Shown: positions 46,553 to 53,505 of the stretch, piece after piece
How the letters are laid out: each line of letters starts with the position of its first letter
Position numbering within the stretch: position 1 is the stretch's first letter
Virus record (IMG/VR): IMGVR_UViG_3300046697_000246
Span: 9,291 to 73,290 of that record
Source of the DNA: a virus
Length of the DNA: 64,000 nucleotides
Reading direction: 5' to 3' (one strand)
Made by a program: the position numbers and the translations under genes
The notes under the pieces: generated by a model
Databases searched by the model: none
Told to the model about the DNA's origin: nothing
The model's input: the letters and a program-made list of their open reading frames with translations, nothing else

Positions 46553-46867
46553 TCACTTCGGCTTATCAGCTATGTTAGCCGTCACTAGCTGGCTCTTTGG
46601 CGGGTAGCCTGATGCCTCGTCACATACACGCTGCATCCATTCCGCCAATGTCAGATTGTGCAGCCGTGCCATTCGCACATACCAGTTCTTGCGCGCCATC
46701 ACGACGCGCAGGTGGATGTGTCCTGTGGCAGCTACGCTGTCATTCAGCGGACGACCAGCCCCGCGTCCTAGGTCGGCGGTTTTAGCGCCACGGGGCCGGT
46801 CGTGAGATTCTTCGTGGCATCGGACGCATACGTCCGAGTCTTTGCCGTGTTCGCATTTGTGGGCCAT
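46553..46867 (-). CDS. RHH/CopG-like DNA-binding protein (cassette gene)
   Basis: GAGRP...HIHLRV...K..Y...A....LTLAEWM..VCD; its 3' part is duplicated at 63912-64000. Confidence 0.65.
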   Translation of the reverse strand: MAHKCEHGKDSDVCVRCHEESHDRPRGAKTADLGRGAGRPLNDSVAATGHIHLRVVMARKNWYVRMARLHNLTLAEWMQRVCDEASGYPPKSQLVTANIADKPK

Positions 46868-46868
46868 A

Positions 46869-47114
46869 TTATTTCAGCAGCTTGGCGACTTCGGAGGCGA
46901 TGCGGCTATTGTGCGGCTCGCCGATATTGTCAGCCGTCCACCATCCACGGCGCGAGGCTCGGCAGTCGCCCGGCGCGCAGCCGTATCCGCACTTGCATTG
47001 CGGATCGGAATGATTGACGTGGGTTGCTCCGGTAGCAGCCTCGATCTTGCTGACGATTTTGCGGGACAGGAATCCGTCGTGGCATCCGAAGATATATTCG
47101 CTTGAGGTTGTCAT
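46869..47114 (-). CDS. hypothetical protein (cassette gene)
   Basis: 81 aa; upstream promoter TTGACA-17-GAAACT (47186-47214, minus strand). Confidence 0.6.
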   Translation of the reverse strand: MTTSSEYIFGCHDGFLSRKIVSKIEAATGATHVNHSDPQCKCGYGCAPGDCRASRRGWWTADNIGEPHNSRIASEVAKLLK

Positions 47115-47289
47115 ATTTTTGTCTGTGTTGTTTGTTCACTTCCCGGATTCGCCGGGGCGATTTGTTGGTTTCTTCCAACACAGATAGTTTCGCATTTCAT
47201 CTTCATTTTGTCAACACATTATTATCAGATTTTTACGATTTATTTTGCCCTTGAAAACATTGACGATTTTAGTGTTTTTCGCCCGTGAC

Positions 47290-47379
47290 GGCTAACAAAT
47301 CGGTGCAGCCAATGCCGGTTGGCGCTCTCAGCCAAGTCCGGGCGTCACTGGCCCGGCATGGCTGACCTCTGCGTTGGGT
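47290..47379 (+). repeat. attC-like site 1
   Basis: GGCTAAC..gt[g]cagcca[a]tgccgg / ccggcatggctgac..GTTGGGT. Confidence 0.85.
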
Positions 47380-47545
47380 GCAGAAAAGTTTCATGCGGAT
47401 TCTCCATGCGCTTGCGGGCGTTTGCCGCTGCGCCGAGTTTGCCAAGTCTTGAGGCGTTTCCTTTGTGAAACCTGCCATGTCTAGCGGTGATTATTATATC
47501 AGCCTGTTGGGCGGCACAGCGCACGCGCACTGTGCCGCGTGAGTT

Positions 47546-47953
47546 TTATTTGTTTCGGGTAGCTTCAAGGATTGGCAGGTTGGCTTCGGTCGGCACATAG
47601 ACCACGGTTTTATCCGTGCCTTGCGCGGCCACGTCGTTGATCCAGAGGTAGCGGAGATACGCTTCGTTGTTTTTCAGCGATTCGCCGATTATCTGGTTTG
47701 CTTTTGCGACACCACCAGCGCGGATTACTTCCGCTTGCGCCAGCAGTTCCGCCGATTCCATTTTGGCCTTCGCTTCGGCCACGGCCACTTCTTTTGCGGA
47801 CTGAGCGTGTGCCAGCATTGCCTGGCCGAGTGCGCGGCTCGCATAGATGTTGTATTGAGGATACGCCCACATTGCGCCGAAGATTACGACGCCGATTGCC
47901 ACGATTGATGCGACGATCCAGCCCGCGTAGTTTGGTTCACCATTTTCTTTCAT
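47546..47953 (-). CDS. membrane protein with SPFH-like C-terminal coiled coil (cassette gene)
   Basis: TM helix, then AEV.RA.G.A.AN..I..SL....YLRYLWI..VYVPTEANLPILEA. Confidence 0.7.
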   Translation of the reverse strand: MKENGEPNYAGWIVASIVAIGVVIFGAMWAYPQYNIYASRALGQAMLAHAQSAKEVAVAEAKAKMESAELLAQAEVIRAGGVAKANQIIGESLKNNEAYLRYLWINDVAAQGTDKTVVYVPTEANLPILEATRNK

Positions 47954-47977
47954 TGTTGTGTGTCTTTCGATTGTGCC

Positions 47978-48086
47978 GCCCAACAACCGCATGGAGCCAA
48001 TGCGGGTTGGACGCGCAGTTTATTTCGTTGAGGCTCCAGATTGTTTCACGGTTTCAGTCCCGCATGGCTCATGCGGAGCGTTAGAC
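47978..48086 (+). repeat. attC-like site 2
   Basis: GCCCAAC..ccgcatggagccaatgcggg / cccgcatggctcatgcgg..GTTAGAC. Confidence 0.85.
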
Positions 48087-48226
48087 AGCCGGGCGGAGCG
48101 TTTTGCTTTACGGCGAGCTTTTTGAAGTGCGGCCTGTTGCGCTGGCGTGATTATCCGCGTGCGCTTACGTTTCTTCGGGCCTTGCGCGCCCCACCGCTTG
48201 AAATCTTCTGACGTGTAGGTTTTCAA
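48020..48226 (-). CDS. small basic protein (cassette gene)
   Basis: F..WG..G.K motif; C-terminus is encoded by attC site 2. Confidence 0.55.
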   Translation of the reverse strand: MKTYTSEDFKRWGAQGPKKRKRTRIITPAQQAALQKARRKAKRSARLSNAPHEPCGTETVKQSGASTK

Positions 48227-48546
48227 AATTGGTGCCGGTCTTTATGGGTTTCATCCCAATGTTCTTTTGCGTGGCAGTTACCGCAAAGTAATTCGCATTT
48301 AGAAATCTCAATCTTAACCTTTTCTAAAGACTTTGTTTGCGCTAAAAGCCTGTTCACTCTATCCACTTTCGTTGATGGGTCAATATGGTGGAACTGCAAA
48401 CAGGCCGGATGAGATTCACCGCACCTTTTACAGCCTGACAATTTAACACCCAACACATACGCCCTTAATTTAGCTCTGTGAGCGGACTGCCGCTTACGCT
48501 CACTCTCTTTGTAGAGATGTAAATTTTCACGCCCGATGTAACTCAT
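48223..48546 (-). CDS. HNH endonuclease-like protein (cassette gene)
   Basis: C..CGE....CLQFHH.DP..K...E..KC.LLC.NCH..H. Confidence 0.8.
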   Translation of the reverse strand: MSYIGRENLHLYKESERKRQSAHRAKLRAYVLGVKLSGCKRCGESHPACLQFHHIDPSTKVDRVNRLLAQTKSLEKVKIEISKCELLCGNCHAKEHWDETHKDRHQF

Positions 48547-48549
48547 AAA

Positions 48550-48872
48550 TTTATTGCGGGTCTTTCCCCGCTGTCATCACCTTCGGACGATCAATCCAAT
48601 CCACGGCCACGGTGCGGGCCTGTCCCAGCTTCGGTTGCTGCTCCACTTCCGGCATTGTTGATGCCAGTTCCTCACGCGGGGCTATGAGTCGGAACCGCCG
48701 GAGGCTTTCGCCAAATTATCTCCGGACTTTCACGCCGTCCGGCTGGCGGCTCTTACGTTAGACAGATTCCGCGCTCTGCCGTGCTTTCGTGCGGCTCAGT
48801 TTATTTTATACTCACTTCACTGGAGCCGACTCCGTTTTTCACAAGTCGCACTGCCGGTTTCCCGCGTGCAAG
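48550..48872 (-). ncRNA. candidate structured non-coding RNA / long leader
   Basis: About 320 nt without a credible ORF, several GAAA-capped hairpins, downstream of an AT-rich promoter-like segment. Confidence 0.4.
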
Positions 48873-48943
48873 ATTATTTATATCATATCCCCGTTACGAA
48901 TCAAACTCTTTTTTGATTTATTTTCGTGAATCGCAAACCGGCT

Positions 48944-49040
48944 GTCTAACAACGCGCTGGAACCAACGCCCATTATCGCTGTCAGTCCGCTACGCGGGTC
49001 ATTCCTCAAGCTGGGCGTGGTTCAGCTTGAGGCGTTAGAC
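48944..49040 (+). repeat. attC-like site 3
   Basis: GTCTAAC..gctg[g]aacca[a]cgccc / gggcgtggttcagc..GTTAGAC. Confidence 0.9.
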
Positions 49041-49300
49041 GGCTCGGCGAGCGCCTCGCGCGCTATGTCGCCAAGTCCGAAACTGCGGATGCTTTGCGAT
49101 TCTTCGGACTCGATGATTTCTTCGAGTGCTTTTTTGTAGCGCTTCACATTCTCACCGAGCGCAAAAATTTGTCTGGCATCGGCTCGAATCAGCCTGTCAG
49201 ATTCAAGCAGTTCGCCGATGAGTTGCAGTTTTGACACCTTTTTGTATCGTGCGGCGACTGTAATTTGTTCGCCGAATGTTTGTTCGCTCATAGAGTTCAT
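49022..49300 (-). CDS. hypothetical coiled-coil protein (cassette gene)
   Basis: Ends IAREAL..PSNASS inside attC site 3. Confidence 0.6.
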   Translation of the reverse strand: MNSMSEQTFGEQITVAARYKKVSKLQLIGELLESDRLIRADARQIFALGENVKRYKKALEEIIESEESQSIRSFGLGDIAREALAEPSNASS

Positions 49301-49521
49301 TTGTTCCTTTTCACGAGGCGTTCAGCCTCGAACTTGGTCAGCCCTATTGCCAGCTTGGTCACTTTTCCGAACTTGGTCACTTTCACCACCATCCAAGCGT
49401 TTCCTACCGTCGAGCATGGTTTTATTTGAAGTTTCATATTTTCAATTCGCCGTCTAACAACCGCATGAAGCCAATGCGGTTGGGCGTCTCTGGTTTGACG
49501 GGAAGTCTCTGGTGATTTCAT
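49297..49521 (-). CDS. hypothetical protein (cassette gene)
   Basis: Starts inside attC site 4; ATGA-coupled to the downstream gene. Confidence 0.55.
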   Translation of the reverse strand: MKSPETSRQTRDAQPHWLHAVVRRRIENMKLQIKPCSTVGNAWMVVKVTKFGKVTKLAIGLTKFEAERLVKRNK

Positions 49522-49557
49522 GGTTTGGTGTCCGCGTCGCTTATGCGGACGTTAGAC
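49452..49557 (+). repeat. attC-like site 4
   Basis: GTCTAAC..ccgcatgaagccaatgcgg / ccgcgtcgcttatgcgg..GTTAGAC. Confidence 0.85.
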
Positions 49558-49567
49558 GGCTTCAGTA

Positions 49568-49942
49568 TCACCAGTCTATGAGTATCGTGTGTTCACCGGC
49601 TTCAAGCAGCCCTTTGGCATGGAGGTCATTTGCCACCATTTGCAGGTCAGGGTAGAAGTTTCTATCCCACCAAAGTCCCAGGCTGTAGTCCGTTCGCCCA
49701 TCGGCCAGCGCTTTTTTTGGATCTCTTGCGAGCCACGCCGCGAAGCTCACGCCCTTTTCTTCATGGTTCACTTTTTCCGGCACAGTTGTTCGCTCGTGGT
49801 CACTTGCTTCGGATGGCACGTCTATTACCACCGTTCCGCGACTCATGCAGCCATCCTGTTGCTGTAGATTGTAGGGGCGTCCGTAGGTTTTCACCACGAG
49901 CGCATCCCATTCCGACACTTCGATCACTTGTTTTGTTTTCAT
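49568..49942 (-). CDS. conserved-looking phage hypothetical protein (cassette gene)
   Basis: YGRPY..QQQDGC..RG, W.RNFYP..ANDL. Confidence 0.7.
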   Translation of the reverse strand: MKTKQVIEVSEWDALVVKTYGRPYNLQQQDGCMSRGTVVIDVPSEASDHERTTVPEKVNHEEKGVSFAAWLARDPKKALADGRTDYSLGLWWDRNFYPDLQMVANDLHAKGLLEAGEHTILIDW

Positions 49943-49963
49943 ATTTGTTTATCGCTGTTCGCC

Positions 49964-50062
49964 GTCTAACAACTCACTCCAGCCAACCGGCGTTACGACT
50001 TGCCGTCCGCCTTCGCGGGCGACGCGCCTCGGTCGCCGGTGGCTGAGTTCGAGGCGTTCTCC
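49964..50062 (+). repeat. attC-like site 5
   Basis: GTCTAAC..ctc[c]agcca[a]ccggcg / cgccggtggctgag..GTTCTCC. Confidence 0.85.
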
Positions 50063-50286
50063 GGCACGAGTCCTTTGTATTTATGGAGTTGGTAGCGGAG
50101 GTGTTGGATTAGCGCGGCGCAGTTTTTCCCATCATCACCAAAGTCTCGTAAGGCGGCTTCGGCTTGCCACATTTGAGCGGTTGCCTGTGCGATGTGAGAC
50201 ATGACGTGTTCGCGTGCCGGAGAACAAGTCGCTGCACCCGCAACTGCCGCTGCCCGTTTCCGATTCTTGGCTTTTATTTTGGTCAT
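49993..50286 (-). CDS. hypothetical protein (cassette gene)
   Basis: Starts in attC site 6 and ends in site 5. Confidence 0.55.
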   Translation of the reverse strand: MTKIKAKNRKRAAAVAGAATCSPAREHVMSHIAQATAQMWQAEAALRDFGDDGKNCAALIQHLRYQLHKYKGLVPENASNSATGDRGASPAKADGKS

Positions 50287-50346
50287 AAAGTTTCAGTGCC
50301 GCCCACGGTCGCGCTCGGCGGCAGTGGGGTGAGCTTCACGTTCGGC
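50219..50346 (+). repeat. attC-like site 6
   Basis: GGAGAAC..gctgcacccgcaactgccgc / gcggcagtggggtgagc..GTTCGGC. Confidence 0.8.
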
Positions 50347-50350
50347 GTCT

Positions 50351-50998
50351 TCATTTTCGCGCCTCCGGTTTATCGTAGGGCAGTCCGACGAAAGCAAAGA
50401 CGGCTTCCTCGGATTCCATCGCTCGCGCTTCGTCACCCCGCGAGAATCCCGCACCGTATGGATTCCATTTCCATCCGCGTTCCTGCGCGGACATGCAGAT
50501 GCGCGTGTTGCTGTCCGCCGGGCCGGTTCGGCAGACGAGATAGTTGTGCCAGTTCTCCGCCGTCGCCGCGAAGAAGTCCACGGGCAGCCCGGTGGCACGG
50601 TGGCGCATCAGTTTATTTTTCGCGCCATACATTTCCGATCCGTTCACATTCTTGCGCCGTTCCAGCACGCCGGATTTTTCGAGCGCGGCGATTACTTCGT
50701 CCGCGAGATTTACCGTGATGCTGGCGAACATATCGGCAGGGTCTTGGCGCTCTTCGGTTTTTCCGATGTAGAGGATTTCAGCATCGCCCACGGTGGTCTT
50801 TCGCCGGCGCAGTGAGCCAGCGACGACGAGGCGCTCACAGACTGGCTTGAGCGCCGCGCAGAGTTCCGCAGCCACCTTCATTCCAACGGCGTTGTCGAAG
50901 CGAGGTTTCTGTCCAGACGCCGAACACATCGCTGCACCCGCAATGACTGCTGCGGTCACAGTTTTCGGCGATGGTGGCGTTTTTGGCGCAGCAGTCAT
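50351..50998 (-). CDS. minimal family X DNA polymerase-like nucleotidyltransferase (palm + thumb; cassette gene)
   Basis: AGSLRR....GDAEIL, PVDFF, RTG..D.N and E..VF...GL.Y..PE.R; start at ATG 50998 inside attC site 7. Confidence 0.8.
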   Translation of the reverse strand: MTAAPKTPPSPKTVTAAVIAGAAMCSASGQKPRFDNAVGMKVAAELCAALKPVCERLVVAGSLRRRKTTVGDAEILYIGKTEERQDPADMFASITVNLADEVIAALEKSGVLERRKNVNGSEMYGAKNKLMRHRATGLPVDFFAATAENWHNYLVCRTGPADSNTRICMSAQERGWKWNPYGAGFSRGDEARAMESEEAVFAFVGLPYDKPEARK

Positions 50999-51019
50999 GG
51001 GGTGAGCTTTGCGTTCGGC
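50919..51019 (+). repeat. attC-like site 7
   Basis: GCCGAAC..gctgcacccgcaatgactgctgcg / cgcagcagtcatggggtgagc..GTTCGGC. Confidence 0.85.
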
Positions 51020-51237
51020 TGCTTTATTGCTTGGGCATTCCAGTTGCGGCGGGCGGTGTGGCGAGTCCACGCCATTTTTCCGCTCCGACCGCATTTGGGA
51101 CATAGCAGCCAGATCAGTCCGCCGCCACCGTCCCATATCGGGAGCGTTCCACAGTTACACGGCAGCAGCCGAACAAGCCTGCCGGAGCCAACCGTGGTTG
51201 GCCGTCTCTTTTTATTCGCTACGGATTTCTTTTTCAT
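50995..51237 (-). CDS. Lar-like (restriction alleviation) Zn-ribbon protein (cassette gene)
   Basis: LLPC.CG...C.KC.......AR..WN; start at ATG 51237. Confidence 0.6.
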   Translation of the reverse strand: MKKKSVANKKRRPTTVGSGRLVRLLPCNCGTLPIWDGGGGLIWLLCPKCGRSGKMAWTRHTARRNWNAQAIKQPNAKLTP

Positions 51238-51278
51238 AAAGTCTCTAGTCCACGGCGGCGCATCAGGCACCGTTCGGC
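51168..51278 (+). repeat. attC-like site 8
   Basis: GCCGAAC..gcctg..ccgtgg / ccacgg..caggc..GTTCGGC; somewhat degenerate. Confidence 0.7.
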
Positions 51279-51805
51279 TTCTGATACACGATCCAGTGTG
51301 TTCGGGTGTTTCCGACCCGCTGACCAAATAGCGGCTTCTGGTCGGTGAGCGACAAAACGGTTGTCAGCTTCACCCGATGTTCATTCCATTTGAAAACGAG
51401 CGTTCCCAGAGGACACAGGACGCGGAAGCATTCACGGAAGCCGGCCGAGATTTCGTTGCGCCAGTCGAGCGGAAGGCTTCCGTATTTCTTTATCGTCCTT
51501 CCGTTCGGCCCGCACCAGGTATGCGGCGGGTCGAATACGACGAGCGCGAAAGTGCAGTCAGGGAATGGCAGTTCCTTGAAGTTTGCCAGCACGTCGGGAT
51601 TTACGACGATGCTTGCCGGTTTCGGGCCGGTGTGGTCTATAAGCGTTTCGCGGCGCTTATCCACGAACAGAGCGCGAGGGTCTGATTTATCAAACCAGAA
51701 CATCCGACTCCCGCAGCACGCATCCAGCACAGAAGCCGAACAAGTCCTTGGAGGCAAAGACGCCACGCCTTGCGCTCCATCATTGATTTCAATTTGAGTA
51801 TTCAT
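51263..51805 (-). CDS. SAM-dependent (probable DNA amino) methyltransferase (cassette gene)
   Basis: VLDACCGSRMFWFDK, LVVFDPPH, F.EC.RVL...G.LVFKW. Confidence 0.85.
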   Translation of the reverse strand: MNTQIEINDGAQGVASLPPRTCSASVLDACCGSRMFWFDKSDPRALFVDKRRETLIDHTGPKPASIVVNPDVLANFKELPFPDCTFALVVFDPPHTWCGPNGRTIKKYGSLPLDWRNEISAGFRECFRVLCPLGTLVFKWNEHRVKLTTVLSLTDQKPLFGQRVGNTRTHWIVYQKPNGA

Positions 51806-51856
51806 TTTACGTTCGAGGCGGCGCTGTCGGCGTCTTGCCTCAAGTCTGCGTTCGGC
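51735..51856 (+). repeat. attC-like site 9
   Basis: GCCGAAC..cttg[g]aggcaa[a]gacgcc / ggcgtcttgcctcaag..GTTCGGC. Confidence 0.85.
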
Positions 51857-52254
51857 GAAATGAATTGCACCGGCAGCCCCATCTCGTTTGCGATGGCGAT
51901 TTCACCCGCAACGCCTTTTGATTCCTTCCAGCCGTCGAGTGTCAGCACGATCATCGCGCAGCACGCGGCGAGGATGGCGCGGTCATACGCCTGCCAGTAT
52001 TCCCACCCCAGAGGCAGATCACCGGCCAGCGCAATTGGATGCGTGTGGCTGATAGGCGAGTAGATGTGCATTCCCTTCCGCATCAGTTCCGCCGCCGCCG
52101 CGTTGACGGCTCGGAAGCGTCCTTCCCGCACCGATGCGTCTGGGTGCGAGTATGGGGTTGCGAGATATACGAGCGTTTTCGCCGAACAAGCGGATGCAGG
52201 CAACAGCCGCTGGCCATCTGGTTTTTCAAGTGTTGATTCCATATTCAAAGTCAT
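51802..52254 (-). CDS. DUF1937 family protein (cassette gene)
   Basis: YLATPYSH, SPISH.HP, W...D..IL..C..M.VL...GW.ES.GV..EI..A; start at ATG 52254 inside attC site 10. Confidence 0.8.
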   Translation of the reverse strand: MTLNMESTLEKPDGQRLLPASACSAKTLVYLATPYSHPDASVREGRFRAVNAAAAELMRKGMHIYSPISHTHPIALAGDLPLGWEYWQAYDRAILAACCAMIVLTLDGWKESKGVAGEIAIANEMGLPVQFISPNADLRQDADSAASNVK

Positions 52255-52293
52255 TTGGTCTTCGGCGGCTGTGCCTGATCCGCAGCGTTCGGC
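52181..52293 (+). repeat. attC-like site 10
   Basis: GCCGAAC..gcggat[g]caggca[a]cagccg / cggctgtgcctgatccgc..GTTCGGC. Confidence 0.85.
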
Positions 52294-52300
52294 GGCATTT

Positions 52301-52549
52301 TCATTCGATGCAAACAATACGCTCGGAGCCGCATTCAGGACACACGAGTTTCCCGCCGGCCACGCATGGCATTCGTTCCTCTCCGCAGTTATGGCAGCCG
52401 TGATATTTTCCGCAGGCTTGTTCTACGCTCAACGTTGCCGCCGAACAAACCGTTGCAGATAATTCGCTCTGCGCCTTCTGTTCTCGCTGCTCTCGTCGGC
52501 GAGCAACGCGCGCATACACGAGGATGGATGTTGGGTCAAAGTCGCTCAT
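52301..52549 (-). CDS. small Zn-ribbon protein (cassette gene)
   Basis: CHNC...CPECGS. Confidence 0.55.
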   Translation of the reverse strand: MSDFDPTSILVYARVARRREQREQKAQSELSATVCSAATLSVEQACGKYHGCHNCGEERMPCVAGGKLVCPECGSERIVCIE

Positions 52550-52570
52550 ATCTGAACTTTCTCGTTAGCC
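52440..52570 (+). repeat. attC-like site 11
   Basis: GCCGAAC..ttgcagata / tatctgaa..GTTAGCC; weaker stem. Confidence 0.65.
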
Positions 52571-52854
52571 ATCGGTTCGACATCCACGCCTTTCATTCCA
52601 AGAAACGCTTTTCCGTGGATTGGGCATACAAACATATCGAAGTGGTGCTTGTGACTTCGGACGCGCCACTCAGCCTTGTTCTCGCAGAGTTCGCGGTCAG
52701 CTATGACCATACACGTCCGCTGGCTAACCCGGCGCTGCTGCGAATCCGTGCCTCGCTTTACGGACAACGGCATCATCACCATTTCGCGGCACCATCCGGC
52801 ACAGTAGCCGTCATCCGTCACCAGTTCTTTTTTGCATTTTGGACACGTTCTCAT
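52546..52854 (-). CDS. Cys-rich hypothetical protein (cassette gene)
   Basis: The N-terminal CPKC..C..WC is encoded within the long loop of attC site 12. Confidence 0.55.
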   Translation of the reverse strand: MRTCPKCKKELVTDDGYCAGWCREMVMMPLSVKRGTDSQQRRVSQRTCMVIADRELCENKAEWRVRSHKHHFDMFVCPIHGKAFLGMKGVDVEPMANEKVQI

Positions 52855-52920
52855 ATTCGTTATTTTCCTTTGCGCTCCACATCCGCCGCCGGCACGGATC
52901 GCAGAGCTTGGTCGTTAAGC
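52722..52920 (+). repeat. attC-like site 12 (199 bp)
   Basis: GGCTAAC..gct[g]ctgcga[a]tccgtgcc / ggcacggatcgcagagc..GTTAAGC. Confidence 0.8.
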
Positions 52921-53193
52921 CGCTAGCTTCAGTTTGTGGCAGTTTTTTATTTCCTCACAACATTGCGGACAAGTTATCGCTTGCGGTGGGACATTCTCCC
53001 AAGCGGATTGATCTTGCTCATTTCCGGTCGCAGTTCCATCGAACGCTTGCCCGCAGATGGTAAATTCCGAATTGAGAGCACTTATCCGGTGGACAAATCC
53101 ATCACCTGTTTTTCCGAAGCCCGTATTCTTTCGGGGCCGCGGCTTAACCCGTCGCTGCTGCGGACACGGCTTGGCGTCTTGGGATTTGCTCAT
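52915..53193 (-). CDS. hypothetical Zn-binding protein (cassette gene)
   Basis: VH.....T.CG.A.D...ITCP.C. Confidence 0.6.
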   Translation of the reverse strand: MSKSQDAKPCPQQRRVKPRPRKNTGFGKTGDGFVHRISALNSEFTICGQAFDGTATGNEQDQSAWENVPPQAITCPQCCEEIKNCHKLKLAA

Positions 53194-53250
53194 AAGGTTT
53201 CTGGTTTGCCTGCGTCCCCATGTGCCGGGTCGCAGAGCGCGTCGTTCGGC
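53142..53250 (+). repeat. attC-like site 13
   Basis: GCTTAAC..cgctgctgcggacacggc / gccgggtcgcagagcg..GTTCGGC. Confidence 0.75.
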
Positions 53251-53505
53251 CTATTCAGTTTTTTCGAGCCATTTCGCATATTTTTGCGCGGCTTCCTTGA
53301 CGGCTTCTTCGAGTGTTTCTTTGCTTTTGGATTCACAGTAGCAGTCACCATGTATTGTAACACAGTAGCCACGACCAGCCCCCATTAACTTGAACATCTT
53401 GACCTCTTGCCCATCATCTAGTGCAGGCGCCAACGACTCTTGGCGATTTCCGTTCGATGTTTTTTTCTTCATTGGTTCTTTTGATTGTGATTTTTTAATT
53501 TTCAT
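53251..53505 (-). CDS. hypothetical protein
   Basis: 84 aa; overlaps the end of the DUF5131 gene. Confidence 0.5.
   Translation of the reverse strand: MKIKKSQSKEPMKKKTSNGNRQESLAPALDDGQEVKMFKLMGAGRGYCVTIHGDCYCESKSKETLEEAVKEAAQKYAKWLEKTE

What the first reader, a model, noticed from the sequence alone, without database searches (positions are those of the whole stretch)
47978..53280. Cassette genes are antisense to attC polarity and translated through the attC hairpins by coupled mini-ORFs
Seen: the unpaired bases mark + as the attC top strand, yet all genes are on -, the reverse of usual integron cassettes. The attCs themselves are coding. C-termini (..PNAKLTP*, ..PNADLRQDADSAASNVK*, ..ANEKVQI*, ..SNAPHEP..) come from one arm, and the next start sits in the loop as an ATGA overlap (50998, 51805, 52549, 53193). 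Where a cargo gene stops at or before the attC, a mini-ORF bridges it and ends on the next ATG: MKTPNVKLTPLPPSATVGGTETL* (50283-50354), MPPNAADQAQPPKTK* (ending on 52254), MRRRGLETL* (ending on 51237), VILKPSNVRISDADTKP* (ending on 49521). Inference: each attC is also a translational-coupling device. A shuffled cassette would be expressed in the operon, would carry its own start and would take its C-terminal tail from the neighbour; ribosomes may also suppress termination at the hairpins.
Basis: partly seen in the sequence, partly recalled or inferred. Interest (0 to 1): 0.88.

Follow-up and report, generated by a model that had tools for sequence, protein, structure and literature searches.

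The report
Backwards integron cassettes translated through attC
A phage carries a row of genuine integron recombination hairpins whose genes run the opposite way to normal, so that genes stop and restart inside the hairpins, a layout that probably lets ribosomes carry on from one swappable gene to the next.

Summary
A covariance model finds 12 attC sites in the window at 47290-53250, all in one orientation and none elsewhere in the 64 kb. A 13th site (52722-52920) was found by eye only.

A control with the aadA1 attC of plasmid R100, a published rule, and intI-linked arrays of the same attC family all make the + strand the attC top strand. All genes lie on the minus (bottom, recombinogenic) strand.

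The ATGA overlaps and mini-ORFs are all present. Seven of 12 junctions are tightly coupled, one loosely, three have their own start region, and one is followed by non-coding DNA.

The pattern is a family trait. In viral contigs, 52 of 156 sites carry an ATGA stop-start bridge on the gene strand, against 9 of 156 on the top strand, 16.9±3.5 in shuffles, and 0 of 123 in canonical metagenome arrays of the same attC family.

Genes enter the site with AAC read as a codon (39), stop at the box's TAA (19), or use the third frame (2).

Coupling is common but not universal. Short ORFs in attC that relieve the hairpin by termination-reinitiation are already in print. Anti-termination has no support.

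This scan reported the same layout earlier in at least eight other phage genomes.

The parts
47290..47379 (-). attC site A0 (bottom strand on minus), followed on the gene strand by a promoter-like A/T-rich stretch
   Evidence: CM R1 66.6 bits; sequence
47978..48086 (-). attC A1. The 68-aa ORF 48020-48226 reads through its R'/L' arm (..LSNAPHEPCGTETVKQSGASTK*). The next gene starts at ATG 47953, 25 nt past the site, with its own leader.
   Evidence: CM 84.3 bits
48944..49040 (-). attC A2. Gene 49022-49300 ends inside it (..EPSNASS*, TGA at site position 17). Non-coding DNA follows.
   Evidence: CM 71.1 bits
49452..49557 (-). attC A3, bridged by the mini-ORF 49571-49518 (GTGA overlap with the stop of gene 49568-49942). 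The mini-ORF ends in an ATGA on ATG 49521.
   Evidence: CM 61.8 bits
49964..50062 (-). attC A4. Gene 49993-50286 reads 68 nt into it (..ENASNSATGDRGASPAKADGKS*). The next gene starts at ATG 49942 with its own leader; no coupling.
   Evidence: CM 59 bits
50219..50346 (-). attC A5, bridged by the mini-ORF 50354-50283 (MKTPNVKLTPLPPSATVGGTETL) with an ATGA overlap at both ends
   Evidence: CM 34.1 bits
50919..51019 (-). attC A6. The zinc-ribbon ORF ends ..QPNAKLTP* at TGA 50997-50995 and overlaps ATG 50998 of the PolB-like nucleotidyltransferase gene (to 50351).
   Evidence: CM 45.4 bits; RNA fold -52.7 kcal/mol with the ATGA in the stem
51168..51278 (-). attC A7. The methyltransferase gene ends ..YQKPNGA* (TGA 51265-51263). 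Mini-ORF MRRRGLETL follows (TGATG, then ATGA on ATG 51237 of the zinc-ribbon ORF).
   Evidence: CM 76.1 bits; the homologous site in L015 keeps the mini-ORF (MSHRGLETL, read from the sequence)
51735..51856 (-). attC A8. The DUF1937 gene reads 52 nt into it (..SPNADLRQDADSAASNVK*). An ATGA overlap links it to ATG 51805 of the methyltransferase gene.
   Evidence: CM 56.6 bits
52181..52293 (-). attC A9, bridged by the mini-ORF 52304-52251 (MKMPPNAADQAQPPKTK) with ATGA at both ends. The DUF1937 gene starts at ATG 52254 in the loop, and its domain begins right after the R'' box.
   Evidence: CM 74.8 bits
52440..52570 (-). attC A10. Gene 52546-52854 ends ..MANEKVQI*, with an ATGA overlap onto ATG 52549 of gene 52301-52549.
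   Evidence: CM 39 bits; weak as an RNA hairpin (z -0.56)
52722..52920 (-). Long attC-like hairpin A11. The stop of gene 52915-53193 is the TAA of its R' box. The next gene starts at ATG 52854 inside its loop.
   Evidence: By eye and arm alignment only; below the CM threshold
53142..53250 (-). attC A12. Gene 53251-53505 stops (TAG) directly before it. A bridging ORF from ATG 53279 ends in an ATGA on ATG 53193.
   Evidence: CM 42.2 bits
49993..53505 (-). Chain of coupled reading frames on the gene strand (12 ORFs with their overlaps), broken only by a 58-nt gap inside A11

Best explanation
This is an integron-type cassette array without an integrase (a CALIN) inside the accessory-gene operon of a phage. 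It is built as a mirror image of a bacterial integron: the genes lie on the attC bottom strand, the strand that integron integrases recombine.

The operon is packed without gaps, so gene borders lie inside the 90-200 nt attC sites. The upstream gene crosses the R' box, either ending on the box's TAA or reading AAC as asparagine, and stops in the 5' arm or loop. The next gene, or a 9-23 codon mini-ORF, starts on an overlapping ATGA, TGATG or GTGA and reads out through the 3' arm and the R'' box.

Inferred mechanism: on the mRNA each attC is a -34 to -53 kcal/mol hairpin that would hide the start codon. A ribosome finishing the upstream frame melts the hairpin and restarts, so downstream genes are translated by termination-reinitiation.

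The crossover point (AA|C) falls in one fixed codon phase or just after a complete TAA. Nearly every attC has a stop in that phase. A re-ordered cassette would therefore still be terminated and coupled.

Shown: site identity, polarity, strand of the genes, frame statistics, enrichment of stop-start bridges. Inferred: that these frames are translated, that restart occurs, and that an integrase moves the cassettes.
For: 1. Bona fide attC.
- 15 of 19 model pairs have compensatory changes, and the bulges lie on one arm.
- The model finds 12 sites in the window, all on one strand and none elsewhere.
- The same arm motif occurs in metagenome arrays next to intI with canonical layout (L182, L135).
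- Related viral loci carry an integron-type integrase (TIGR02249 263.8 bits against a cut-off of 265).
- A contig of run X6 joins 46573 to 48080, a deletion between two GTT (R') boxes.

2. Polarity and strand.
- aadA1 control and Nivina 2016 passages.
- Codon model: 19,198 aa on the bottom strand against 513 on the top strand, in 37 viral arrays.
- ORF-length test without a codon model: viral arrays 47 bottom / 7 top / 55 unclear of 109 cassettes. Metagenome arrays 3 bottom / 118 top / 62 unclear of 183.

3. Frames.
- Of 75 sites with a clear upstream gene, 39 read AAC as a codon, 19 stop on box positions 4-6, 15 stop before the site and 2 use the third frame.
- The AAC frame has a stop within the first 65% of the site in 133 of 145 sites. 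The third frame is open through the site in 47 of 145.

4. Coupling.
- ATGA bridges: 52 of 156 on the gene strand, 9 of 156 on the top strand, 16.9±3.5 in shuffles (maximum 30 in 200).
- 0 of 123 distinct sites of canonical metagenome arrays carry one.

5. Starts that must lie in the attC.
- 26 of 77 downstream genes with a start found have no in-frame ATG/GTG/TTG after the site.
- The DUF1937 domain begins directly after the R'' box.
- Methyltransferase homologues outside arrays have 2-10 residues before VLDACCG. In the window the only starts upstream of that motif are inside A8.

6. Hairpin strength.

7. ATGA overlaps are this phage's usual gene joint elsewhere too, for example 14019/14022, 14795/14798, 15703/15706 and 38372/38375.
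Against: - No RNA or protein data. No listed sequencing run that holds this DNA is on record as RNA, so translation and restart are inferred from sequence alone.
- Coupling is not universal. J1, J4 and J11 have their own start regions, J12 is loose, and 24 of 77 downstream genes have an in-frame ATG only after the site.
- For the methyltransferase, a GTG at the conserved V just past the site cannot be excluded as the start.
- The TGA at site position 17 belongs to the L' box consensus. It also occurs in canonical arrays, where it is not on the coding strand (sequences), so it is exploited rather than evolved for this use.
- The attC interior is not kept with either neighbouring gene, which does not fit a simple one-crossover cassette model.
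- The codon model was trained on this window's own genes.
- 55 of 109 viral cassettes were unclear in the ORF-length test, and 7 favoured the top strand.
- The metagenome control used the best 150 of 274 model hits, which are very uniform sites.
Confidence: 0.62

Rival explanations
1. Translation through the attCs is real, but coupling is not the selected function. Hairpins of host type were inserted into, or spread within, an already gap-free phage operon, and selection only kept frames open and joints overlapping. Alternatively, ribosome transit matters because it keeps long RNA hairpins unfolded and so protects the message from double-strand-specific RNases or from Rho-dependent polarity.
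For: - ATGA overlaps are the phage's ordinary gene joint outside the array.
- The attC family is the same as in canonical arrays, so the hairpin itself did not evolve for translation.
- Stems of about 25-35 bp at -34 to -53 kcal/mol are plausible RNase III substrates; this point is my own knowledge, not tested here.
Against: - Mini-ORFs with overlaps at both ends (4 of 12 junctions) and the near absence of the third frame (2 of 60 genes that reach the box) point to selection on how ribosomes pass, not only on open frames.
- Sequence alone cannot separate this reading from coupling.
Confidence: 0.25
2. The frames across the attCs are chance or gene-caller artefacts. True starts lie downstream of each attC, and the hairpins are untranslated spacers.
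For: - Many sites are followed within 12-30 nt by an A/T-rich leader and ATGAAA.
- 24 of 77 downstream genes have an in-frame ATG only after the site, and 27 of 77 have both options.
- Database proteins with attC-encoded ends are gene-caller predictions.
Against: - 52 of 156 bridges against 16.9±3.5 in shuffles, 9 of 156 on the other strand, and 0 of 123 in canonical arrays.
- Entry frames split 39:19:2.
- 26 of 77 downstream genes have no possible start after the site.
- Domain borders of DUF1937 and the methyltransferase.
Confidence: 0.08
3. The hairpins are not integron sites but phage regulatory stem-loops or terminators that only resemble attC.
For: - No integrase in this genome or in six related records.
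- The first motif scan of 185,579 species genomes gave no attC-like hit.
Against: - AAC/GTT boxes, bulges on one arm and covariation.
- The same family sits next to intI in L182, L135, L048 and L064.
- A natural deletion lies between two GTT boxes.
- No T-runs follow the hairpins.
Confidence: 0.03

Closest known systems
Clusters of attC sites lacking an integrase (CALINs) and integrons in phage genomes (Qi et al. 2023, PMC9892861; abstract and section 3.4 read)
   Same: An array of attC sites with small genes in a phage and no integrase in this genome. DNA methyltransferase genes are among the cassettes.
   Different: [quoted passage not shown] It does not report genes on the attC bottom strand, gene borders inside attCs, or a fixed frame at the crossover. 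Here 12-13 sites are inverted relative to their genes, and the same holds in 37 viral arrays.
Canonical integron cassettes (class 1, sedentary chromosomal integrons)
   Same: The same site anatomy: R boxes with AAC/GTT, an unpaired spacer, extrahelical bases on one arm and a variable loop. The same attC family occurs in canonical intI-linked metagenome arrays.
   Different: Canonical cassettes have the gene on the top strand, followed by its attC. Here the gene is on the bottom strand, so the attC lies ahead of the gene and is partly coding.
Translational coupling by ORF-11/ORF-18 in attI1 and by short ORFs within attC (Hanau-Bercot 2002 and Jacquier 2009, as reviewed in PMC8876359, sections 3.1 and 3.2 read; the primary papers were not seen)
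   Same: A short ORF spanning a recombination site takes its stop from the neighbour and passes ribosomes to the next gene. attC hairpins block ribosomes unless they are translated.
   Different: Those cases are single sites on the top-strand transcript of class 1 integrons. Here it is an array-wide layout on the bottom-strand transcript, with real genes (not only leader peptides) starting and ending inside the sites.
Promoter-early stem-loops (PeSLs) of T4-type phages, which flank shuffled genes
   Same: Repeated stem-loops between small phage accessory genes, linked with modular gene exchange.
   Different: PeSLs carry promoters and are not integrase substrates. The sites here are attCs by structure and by family.

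Membership tests
Integron attC recombination site | Terminal R boxes with conserved 5'-AAC-3' and 5'-GTT-3' triplets | tested here: met
   All 12 model hits and the eye-curated site in the window. In the family, 145 of 156 sites have AAC and GTT at the expected places.
Integron attC recombination site | Imperfect hairpin kept by structure rather than sequence | tested here: met
   15 of 19 consensus pairs show changes on both sides.
Integron attC recombination site | Extrahelical bases on the arm opposite the AAC triplet of one (bottom) strand | tested here: met
   Bulges at two fixed columns of the 3' arm on the gene strand. Same geometry as the aadA1 attC control. Rule taken from PMC5027507.
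Integron attC recombination site | Recombined by an integron integrase | not testable with these tools
   Indirect only: a natural deletion between two GTT boxes, and an integron-type integrase beside sites of this family in L048, L064, L182 and L135.
Complete integron | intI gene and attI next to the array | tested here: not met
   No TIGR02249 or PF00589 match in the 73,290-bp record, which is rated 95% complete. The window is therefore a CALIN.
Canonical integron cassette | Gene on the attC top strand, followed by its attC | tested here: not met
   Genes lie on the bottom strand in the window and in 37 viral arrays. Canonical arrays of the same family have genes on the top strand.
Translational coupling by termination-reinitiation | Stop and start overlap or lie a few bases apart, with the start poorly accessible on its own | tested here: met
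   Overlaps at 7 of 12 window junctions. 52 of 156 sites in the family. Starts lie inside -34 to -53 kcal/mol hairpins.
Translational coupling by termination-reinitiation | Downstream translation depends on upstream translation | not testable with these tools
   Needs reporter assays or ribosome profiling.

The most novel reading that the evidence does not exclude
Phage integrons form a distinct mirror-image cassette system. Genes are written on the recombinogenic bottom strand, and the crossover (AA|C) is locked to one codon phase or placed just after a TAA. Every attC supplies a stop for the gene before it and a start, or a bridging mini-ORF, for the gene after it. Any cassette order therefore gives an intact, fully coupled operon. 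Because the bottom strand is then the non-template strand, transcription of the early operon would itself expose the recombinogenic hairpins, tying cassette shuffling to phage gene expression.
Probability: 0.3. Interest if true: 0.85.

Novelty: new variant of a known kind. Interest (0 to 1): 0.72.

Why it matters
Integrons are taught as one-way devices: promoterless genes on the top strand, read from one promoter, with attC hairpins as untranslated spacers that damp downstream expression.

Here the same recombination sites, from the same sequence family as canonical bacterial arrays, are used the other way round in many phage genomes and are read by ribosomes.

If the frames are translated, three things follow:
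- It would show how a shuffling system can keep every gene expressed whatever the order.
- It would explain how phages can exchange small accessory genes (methyltransferases, nucleases, nucleotidyltransferases) at fixed joints.
- It would mean that gene finders and integron finders mis-annotate these regions, by wrong strand expectations and by wrong starts and ends.

It also gives a natural test bed for termination-reinitiation across very stable hairpins.

Tried and rejected
- A generic inverted-repeat or arm-alignment detector did not separate real sites from background. Scores outside the array reached 13-18. It was replaced by the covariance model.
- MAFFT of top-strand sites aligned only the 5' arm. 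Gene-strand sites of similar length aligned well.
- Greedy longest-ORF strand calls were unreliable. They were replaced by a codon model and an ORF-length test.
- An automatic chain finder that needed 60-codon windows failed on small genes: 36 of 57 junctions were callable and some frames were wrong. The window junctions were therefore checked by hand, and the family was tested with gene-call-free statistics.
- Rfam and tRNA scans of the window found nothing.
- blastn against cultured phages gave only short hits to one gene.
- The search for related loci with the DUF5131-like protein found no relative.
- The genome-contig scan with the first motif gave 10 hits, none attC-like. The host was not tested.
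- I tried to decide from shared modules which R box is the crossover. The result was ambiguous: 6 pairs fit the canonical point and 3 do not.
- Expression: no RNA holder is listed.
- Parts of the stretch without cover are not interpreted.
- Anti-termination by ribosomes was considered and dropped for lack of any terminator-like T-run.
- Supplementary tables of Qi 2023 could not be seen. They may list ORF strands for phage CALINs.
- 'Not in print' rests on six full-text searches and on the sections named above, no more.

Full report
WHAT IS THERE. The window is bases 9291-73290 of a 73,290-bp linear virus record rated 95% complete. Between 47290 and 53250 lie 12-13 imperfect hairpins of 90-199 nt. 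On the + strand each reads RYYYAAC ... GTTRRRY.

I aligned 34 such sites from the window and from related viral contigs in gene-strand orientation. The consensus fold has a 5-bp R-box helix, an unpaired spacer and a 14-bp stem with two single-base bulges, both on the 3' arm. Fifteen of the 19 pairs show changes on both sides.

A covariance model built from this alignment finds 12 sites in the window, all on the minus strand. It finds nothing else in the 64 kb on either strand. One long site (52722-52920) was seen only by eye.

No integron integrase and no tyrosine recombinase of any kind is found in this record. None is found in six related viral records either, three of them rated 100% complete.

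POLARITY. As a positive control I read the attC of aadA1 on plasmid R100. On its coding (top) strand the extra bases (C, then A six bases later) are on the 5' arm. Nivina et al. [quoted passage not shown]

In the window the extra bases are on the + strand 5' arm, which is the minus strand 3' arm. So + is the top strand and minus is the bottom strand.

A third control comes from the same attC family. Metagenome contigs L182 and L135 carry an intI homologue on the strand of the bottom-strand arm motif. Their first cassette ORFs lie on the other strand and end at the attC, which is the textbook layout.

STRAND OF THE GENES. In the window, Pfam matches fall on minus-strand ORFs: HNH, DNA polymerase beta palm and thumb, and DUF1937. 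The ORF 51263-51805 has thousands of SAM-methyltransferase relatives.

A codon model trained on long ORFs of the window puts 1157-1578 aa on minus and none on plus across the array, depending on the span scored.

With two motif scans of viral contigs and the model, I collected 158 sites at E<=1e-4 in 39 sources. In 37 arrays the scored ORFs total 19,198 aa on the bottom strand and 513 aa on the top strand.

A test that uses only ORF length gave 47 bottom, 7 top and 55 unclear of 109 viral cassettes. The same test on metagenome contigs that carry the same arm motif gave 3 bottom, 118 top and 62 unclear of 183.

So one attC family is used canonically in what are most likely bacterial arrays, and backwards in viral contigs.

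Two viral loci, L048 and L064, encode an integron-type integrase. It scores 263.8 and 221.7 bits on TIGR02249, cut-off 265, and is the best family by a wide margin. It lies on the same strand as the cassette genes and in the same run of genes.

THE JUNCTIONS IN THE WINDOW, read along the minus strand:
- J12 (53142-53250). The gene stops (TAG) right before the site. A bridging ORF starts 27 nt upstream of that stop and ends in an ATGA on ATG 53193. This joint is loose.
- J11 (52722-52920). The stop is the TAA of the R' box. The next gene starts 58 nt later in the loop, behind an A/T-rich leader. There is no coupling.
- J10. ..MANEKVQI*, with ATGA on 52549.
- J9. The upstream stop overlaps (ATGA) a 17-codon mini-ORF, which ends (ATGA) on ATG 52254.
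- J8. ..SPNADLRQDADSAASNVK*, with ATGA on 51805.
- J7. ..YQKPNGA*, then TGATG, mini-ORF MRRRGLETL, then ATGA on 51237.
- J6. ..QPNAKLTP*, with ATGA on 50998.
- J5. ATGA, a 23-codon mini-ORF, then ATGA on 50286.
- J4. The gene reads 68 nt into the site. The next start is 48 nt further on with its own leader. No coupling.
- J3. GTGA, a 17-codon mini-ORF, then ATGA on 49521.
- J2. The gene ends at TGA, site position 17. Non-coding DNA follows.
- J1. The gene reads 65 nt into the site. The next gene has its own leader.

That makes seven tight joints, four of them through a mini-ORF with overlaps at both ends. From 53505 to 49993 the frames form one chain, broken only inside J11.

As RNA the sites fold at -33.6 to -52.7 kcal/mol. 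Five of eight have z-scores of -3.3 or lower, while 52440-52570 and 53142-53250 are weak. At 50919-51019 the ATGA is inside the stem.

IS IT MORE THAN CHANCE? I used a statistic that needs no gene calls. A site counts if a frame open from its first base runs to a stop, and an ATG overlapping that stop as ATGA opens a frame that stays open to the site's last base.

- On 156 non-redundant viral sites this holds for 52 on the gene strand and 9 on the top strand. In 200 dinucleotide shuffles of the interior the mean is 16.9, sd 3.5, maximum 30.
- With the ATG allowed at -4..+10 of the stop, the figures are 77, 22 and 43.8±5.1.
- On my first, hand-curated 57 sites the -4..+10 version gave 31, 5 and 16.8±3.6.
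- The sharpest control is the same attC family in canonical metagenome arrays. Among the best 150 of 274 model hits (123 distinct sequences) there are 0 ATGA bridges on either strand, and only 14 sites contain any ATG on the bottom strand. In viral arrays 135 of 156 do. Those 150 sites are very uniform, which limits this control.

FRAMES. Of 145 sites analysed (11 skipped for lack of AAC or GTT at the expected place), 75 had a clear upstream gene. Of these, 39 read AAC as a codon and go on into the site, 19 stop on box positions 4-6 (TAA of YTAAC), 15 stop before the site and 2 use the third frame.

The AAC frame meets a stop in the first 65% of the site in 133 of 145 sites, at position 17 in 53 of them, and runs through in 4. 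The third frame runs through in 47. On the top strand the AAC frame runs through in 66.

On the exit side, 94 sites had a clear downstream gene and 77 of those had a start. In 26 of the 77 every possible start lies inside or before the site, 27 have both options, and 24 have an ATG only after the site.

The window's GCCGAAC/GTTCGGC boxes carry no stop in any frame, unlike GYCTAAC/GTTAGRC. This can be read directly from the sequence.

GENE BORDERS FROM HOMOLOGUES. The DUF1937 match covers residues 50-152 of the 171-aa ORF. It starts directly after the codons of the R'' box (..CSA|KTLVYLATPYS). The last 17 residues are encoded by the next attC.

Methyltransferase relatives outside arrays have 2-10 residues before the invariant VLDACCG and end 2-8 residues after ..VF.K. 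In the window, the only in-frame starts before that motif lie inside site 51735-51856, apart from a GTG at the conserved V itself.

The same gene has four different tails after YQKPN: in the window, in L019 and in two database proteins. It also has four different leaders. Those database proteins are gene-caller predictions, not evidence of translation.

MOBILITY AND AN OPEN PROBLEM. A contig of run X6 joins 46573 to 48080 with 5 ambiguous letters. This is a deletion between GTTAGCC and GTTAGAC, two top-strand R' boxes. It fits cassette loss at the canonical point.

But homology between arrays ends at both R boxes. The methyltransferase segment is shared between the window and L019 from about 10 nt before the end of one site to 8 nt into the next, with unrelated interiors.

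Among site pairs, 169 share only the interior, 5 only the upstream flank, 2 only the downstream flank, 1 the interior plus downstream flank, 1 the interior plus upstream flank, and 1 all three. Sharing only the interior is what homogeneous arrays give. The few informative pairs (6 fit the canonical point, 3 do not) do not settle which box is cut.

WHAT IS KNOWN.
- attC clusters and integrons in phages are described, some with sites recombined by IntI1 (Qi 2023, PMC9892861; abstract and section 3.4).
- attC hairpins hinder ribosomes rather than transcription. [quoted passage not shown] This is stated in a review (PMC8876359, sections 3.1 and 3.2); I did not see the primary papers.
- I found no paper that describes cassette genes on the attC bottom strand as the rule in phages, gene borders inside attCs, or a fixed phase at the crossover.
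- This scan's own earlier notes report the same layout in at least eight other phage genomes. One note concerns a 71.6-kb phage that may be my G006, judged by its length alone. I treated those notes as leads. My counts are my own.

VERDICT. The attC identity, the polarity and the inverted layout are secure. That the frames are translated and couple ribosomes is the best reading of strong sequence statistics, but it is untested by experiment. It is a new variant of a known kind.

Noticed in passing
window 46573-48080: A contig of run X6 joins 46573 directly to 48080 (skips 1506 nt, 5 ambiguous letters). Both ends are top-strand GTT boxes (GTTAGCC, GTTAGAC), so a variant lacking two cassettes exists in another sample. 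No attC was detected by the model just left of 46574, so that box may be a half-site or an attI-like end.
   Followed up: partly
window 48223-48546: The HNH gene is present or absent in natural variants. Contigs of runs X6, X8 and X9 join 48236 to 48559 (skips 322 nt, 7 ambiguous letters). This looks like a mobile HNH insertion inside a cassette.
   Followed up: no
L048 5006-5983 (+); L064 5796-6785 (-): Related viral contigs encode an integron-type integrase (TIGR02249 263.8 and 221.7 bits, cut-off 265). It lies in the same gene run and on the same strand as the cassette genes and the attC bottom strand. In L048 it is followed by a PolB-like nucleotidyltransferase gene like the window's.
   Followed up: partly
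window 51263-51805 and L019 8182-8637: The same methyltransferase gene sits between unrelated attC interiors in two phages. Homology ends at both R boxes, and the gene is flanked by a 12-bp inverted repeat (GTTCGGCTTCTG / CAGAAGCCGAAC). Linkage of the interior to either neighbouring gene is not kept.
   Followed up: partly
window 47930-47977, 49437-49451, 49943-49963; many loci: A recurring A/T-rich leader, of the type ..atatacgaa(a)atATGaaa, follows many attCs within 12-30 nt. It has no clear Shine-Dalgarno sequence and is probably the stand-alone start region of the uncoupled cassettes.
   Followed up: no
window 47511-47538: A G+C-rich perfect hairpin followed by a T-run on the + strand, that is a terminator-like site facing the minus-strand operon. 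It lies between gene 47546-47992 and the attC at 47290-47379.
   Followed up: no
window 50219-52570: Five to six consecutive sites use the non-canonical boxes GCCGAAC/GTTCGGC. These have no stop codon in any frame. Three downstream genes read the R'' box in the same phase as Cys-Ser-Ala (TGT TCG GCN).
   Followed up: partly
L068-L187 (metagenome loci): There are dense, very uniform arrays of 99-nt attCs of this family every 300-600 nt, with up to 12 exact arm motifs in 5.1 kb and ORFs on the top strand. They look like large sedentary chromosomal integrons of an unidentified host.
   Followed up: partly
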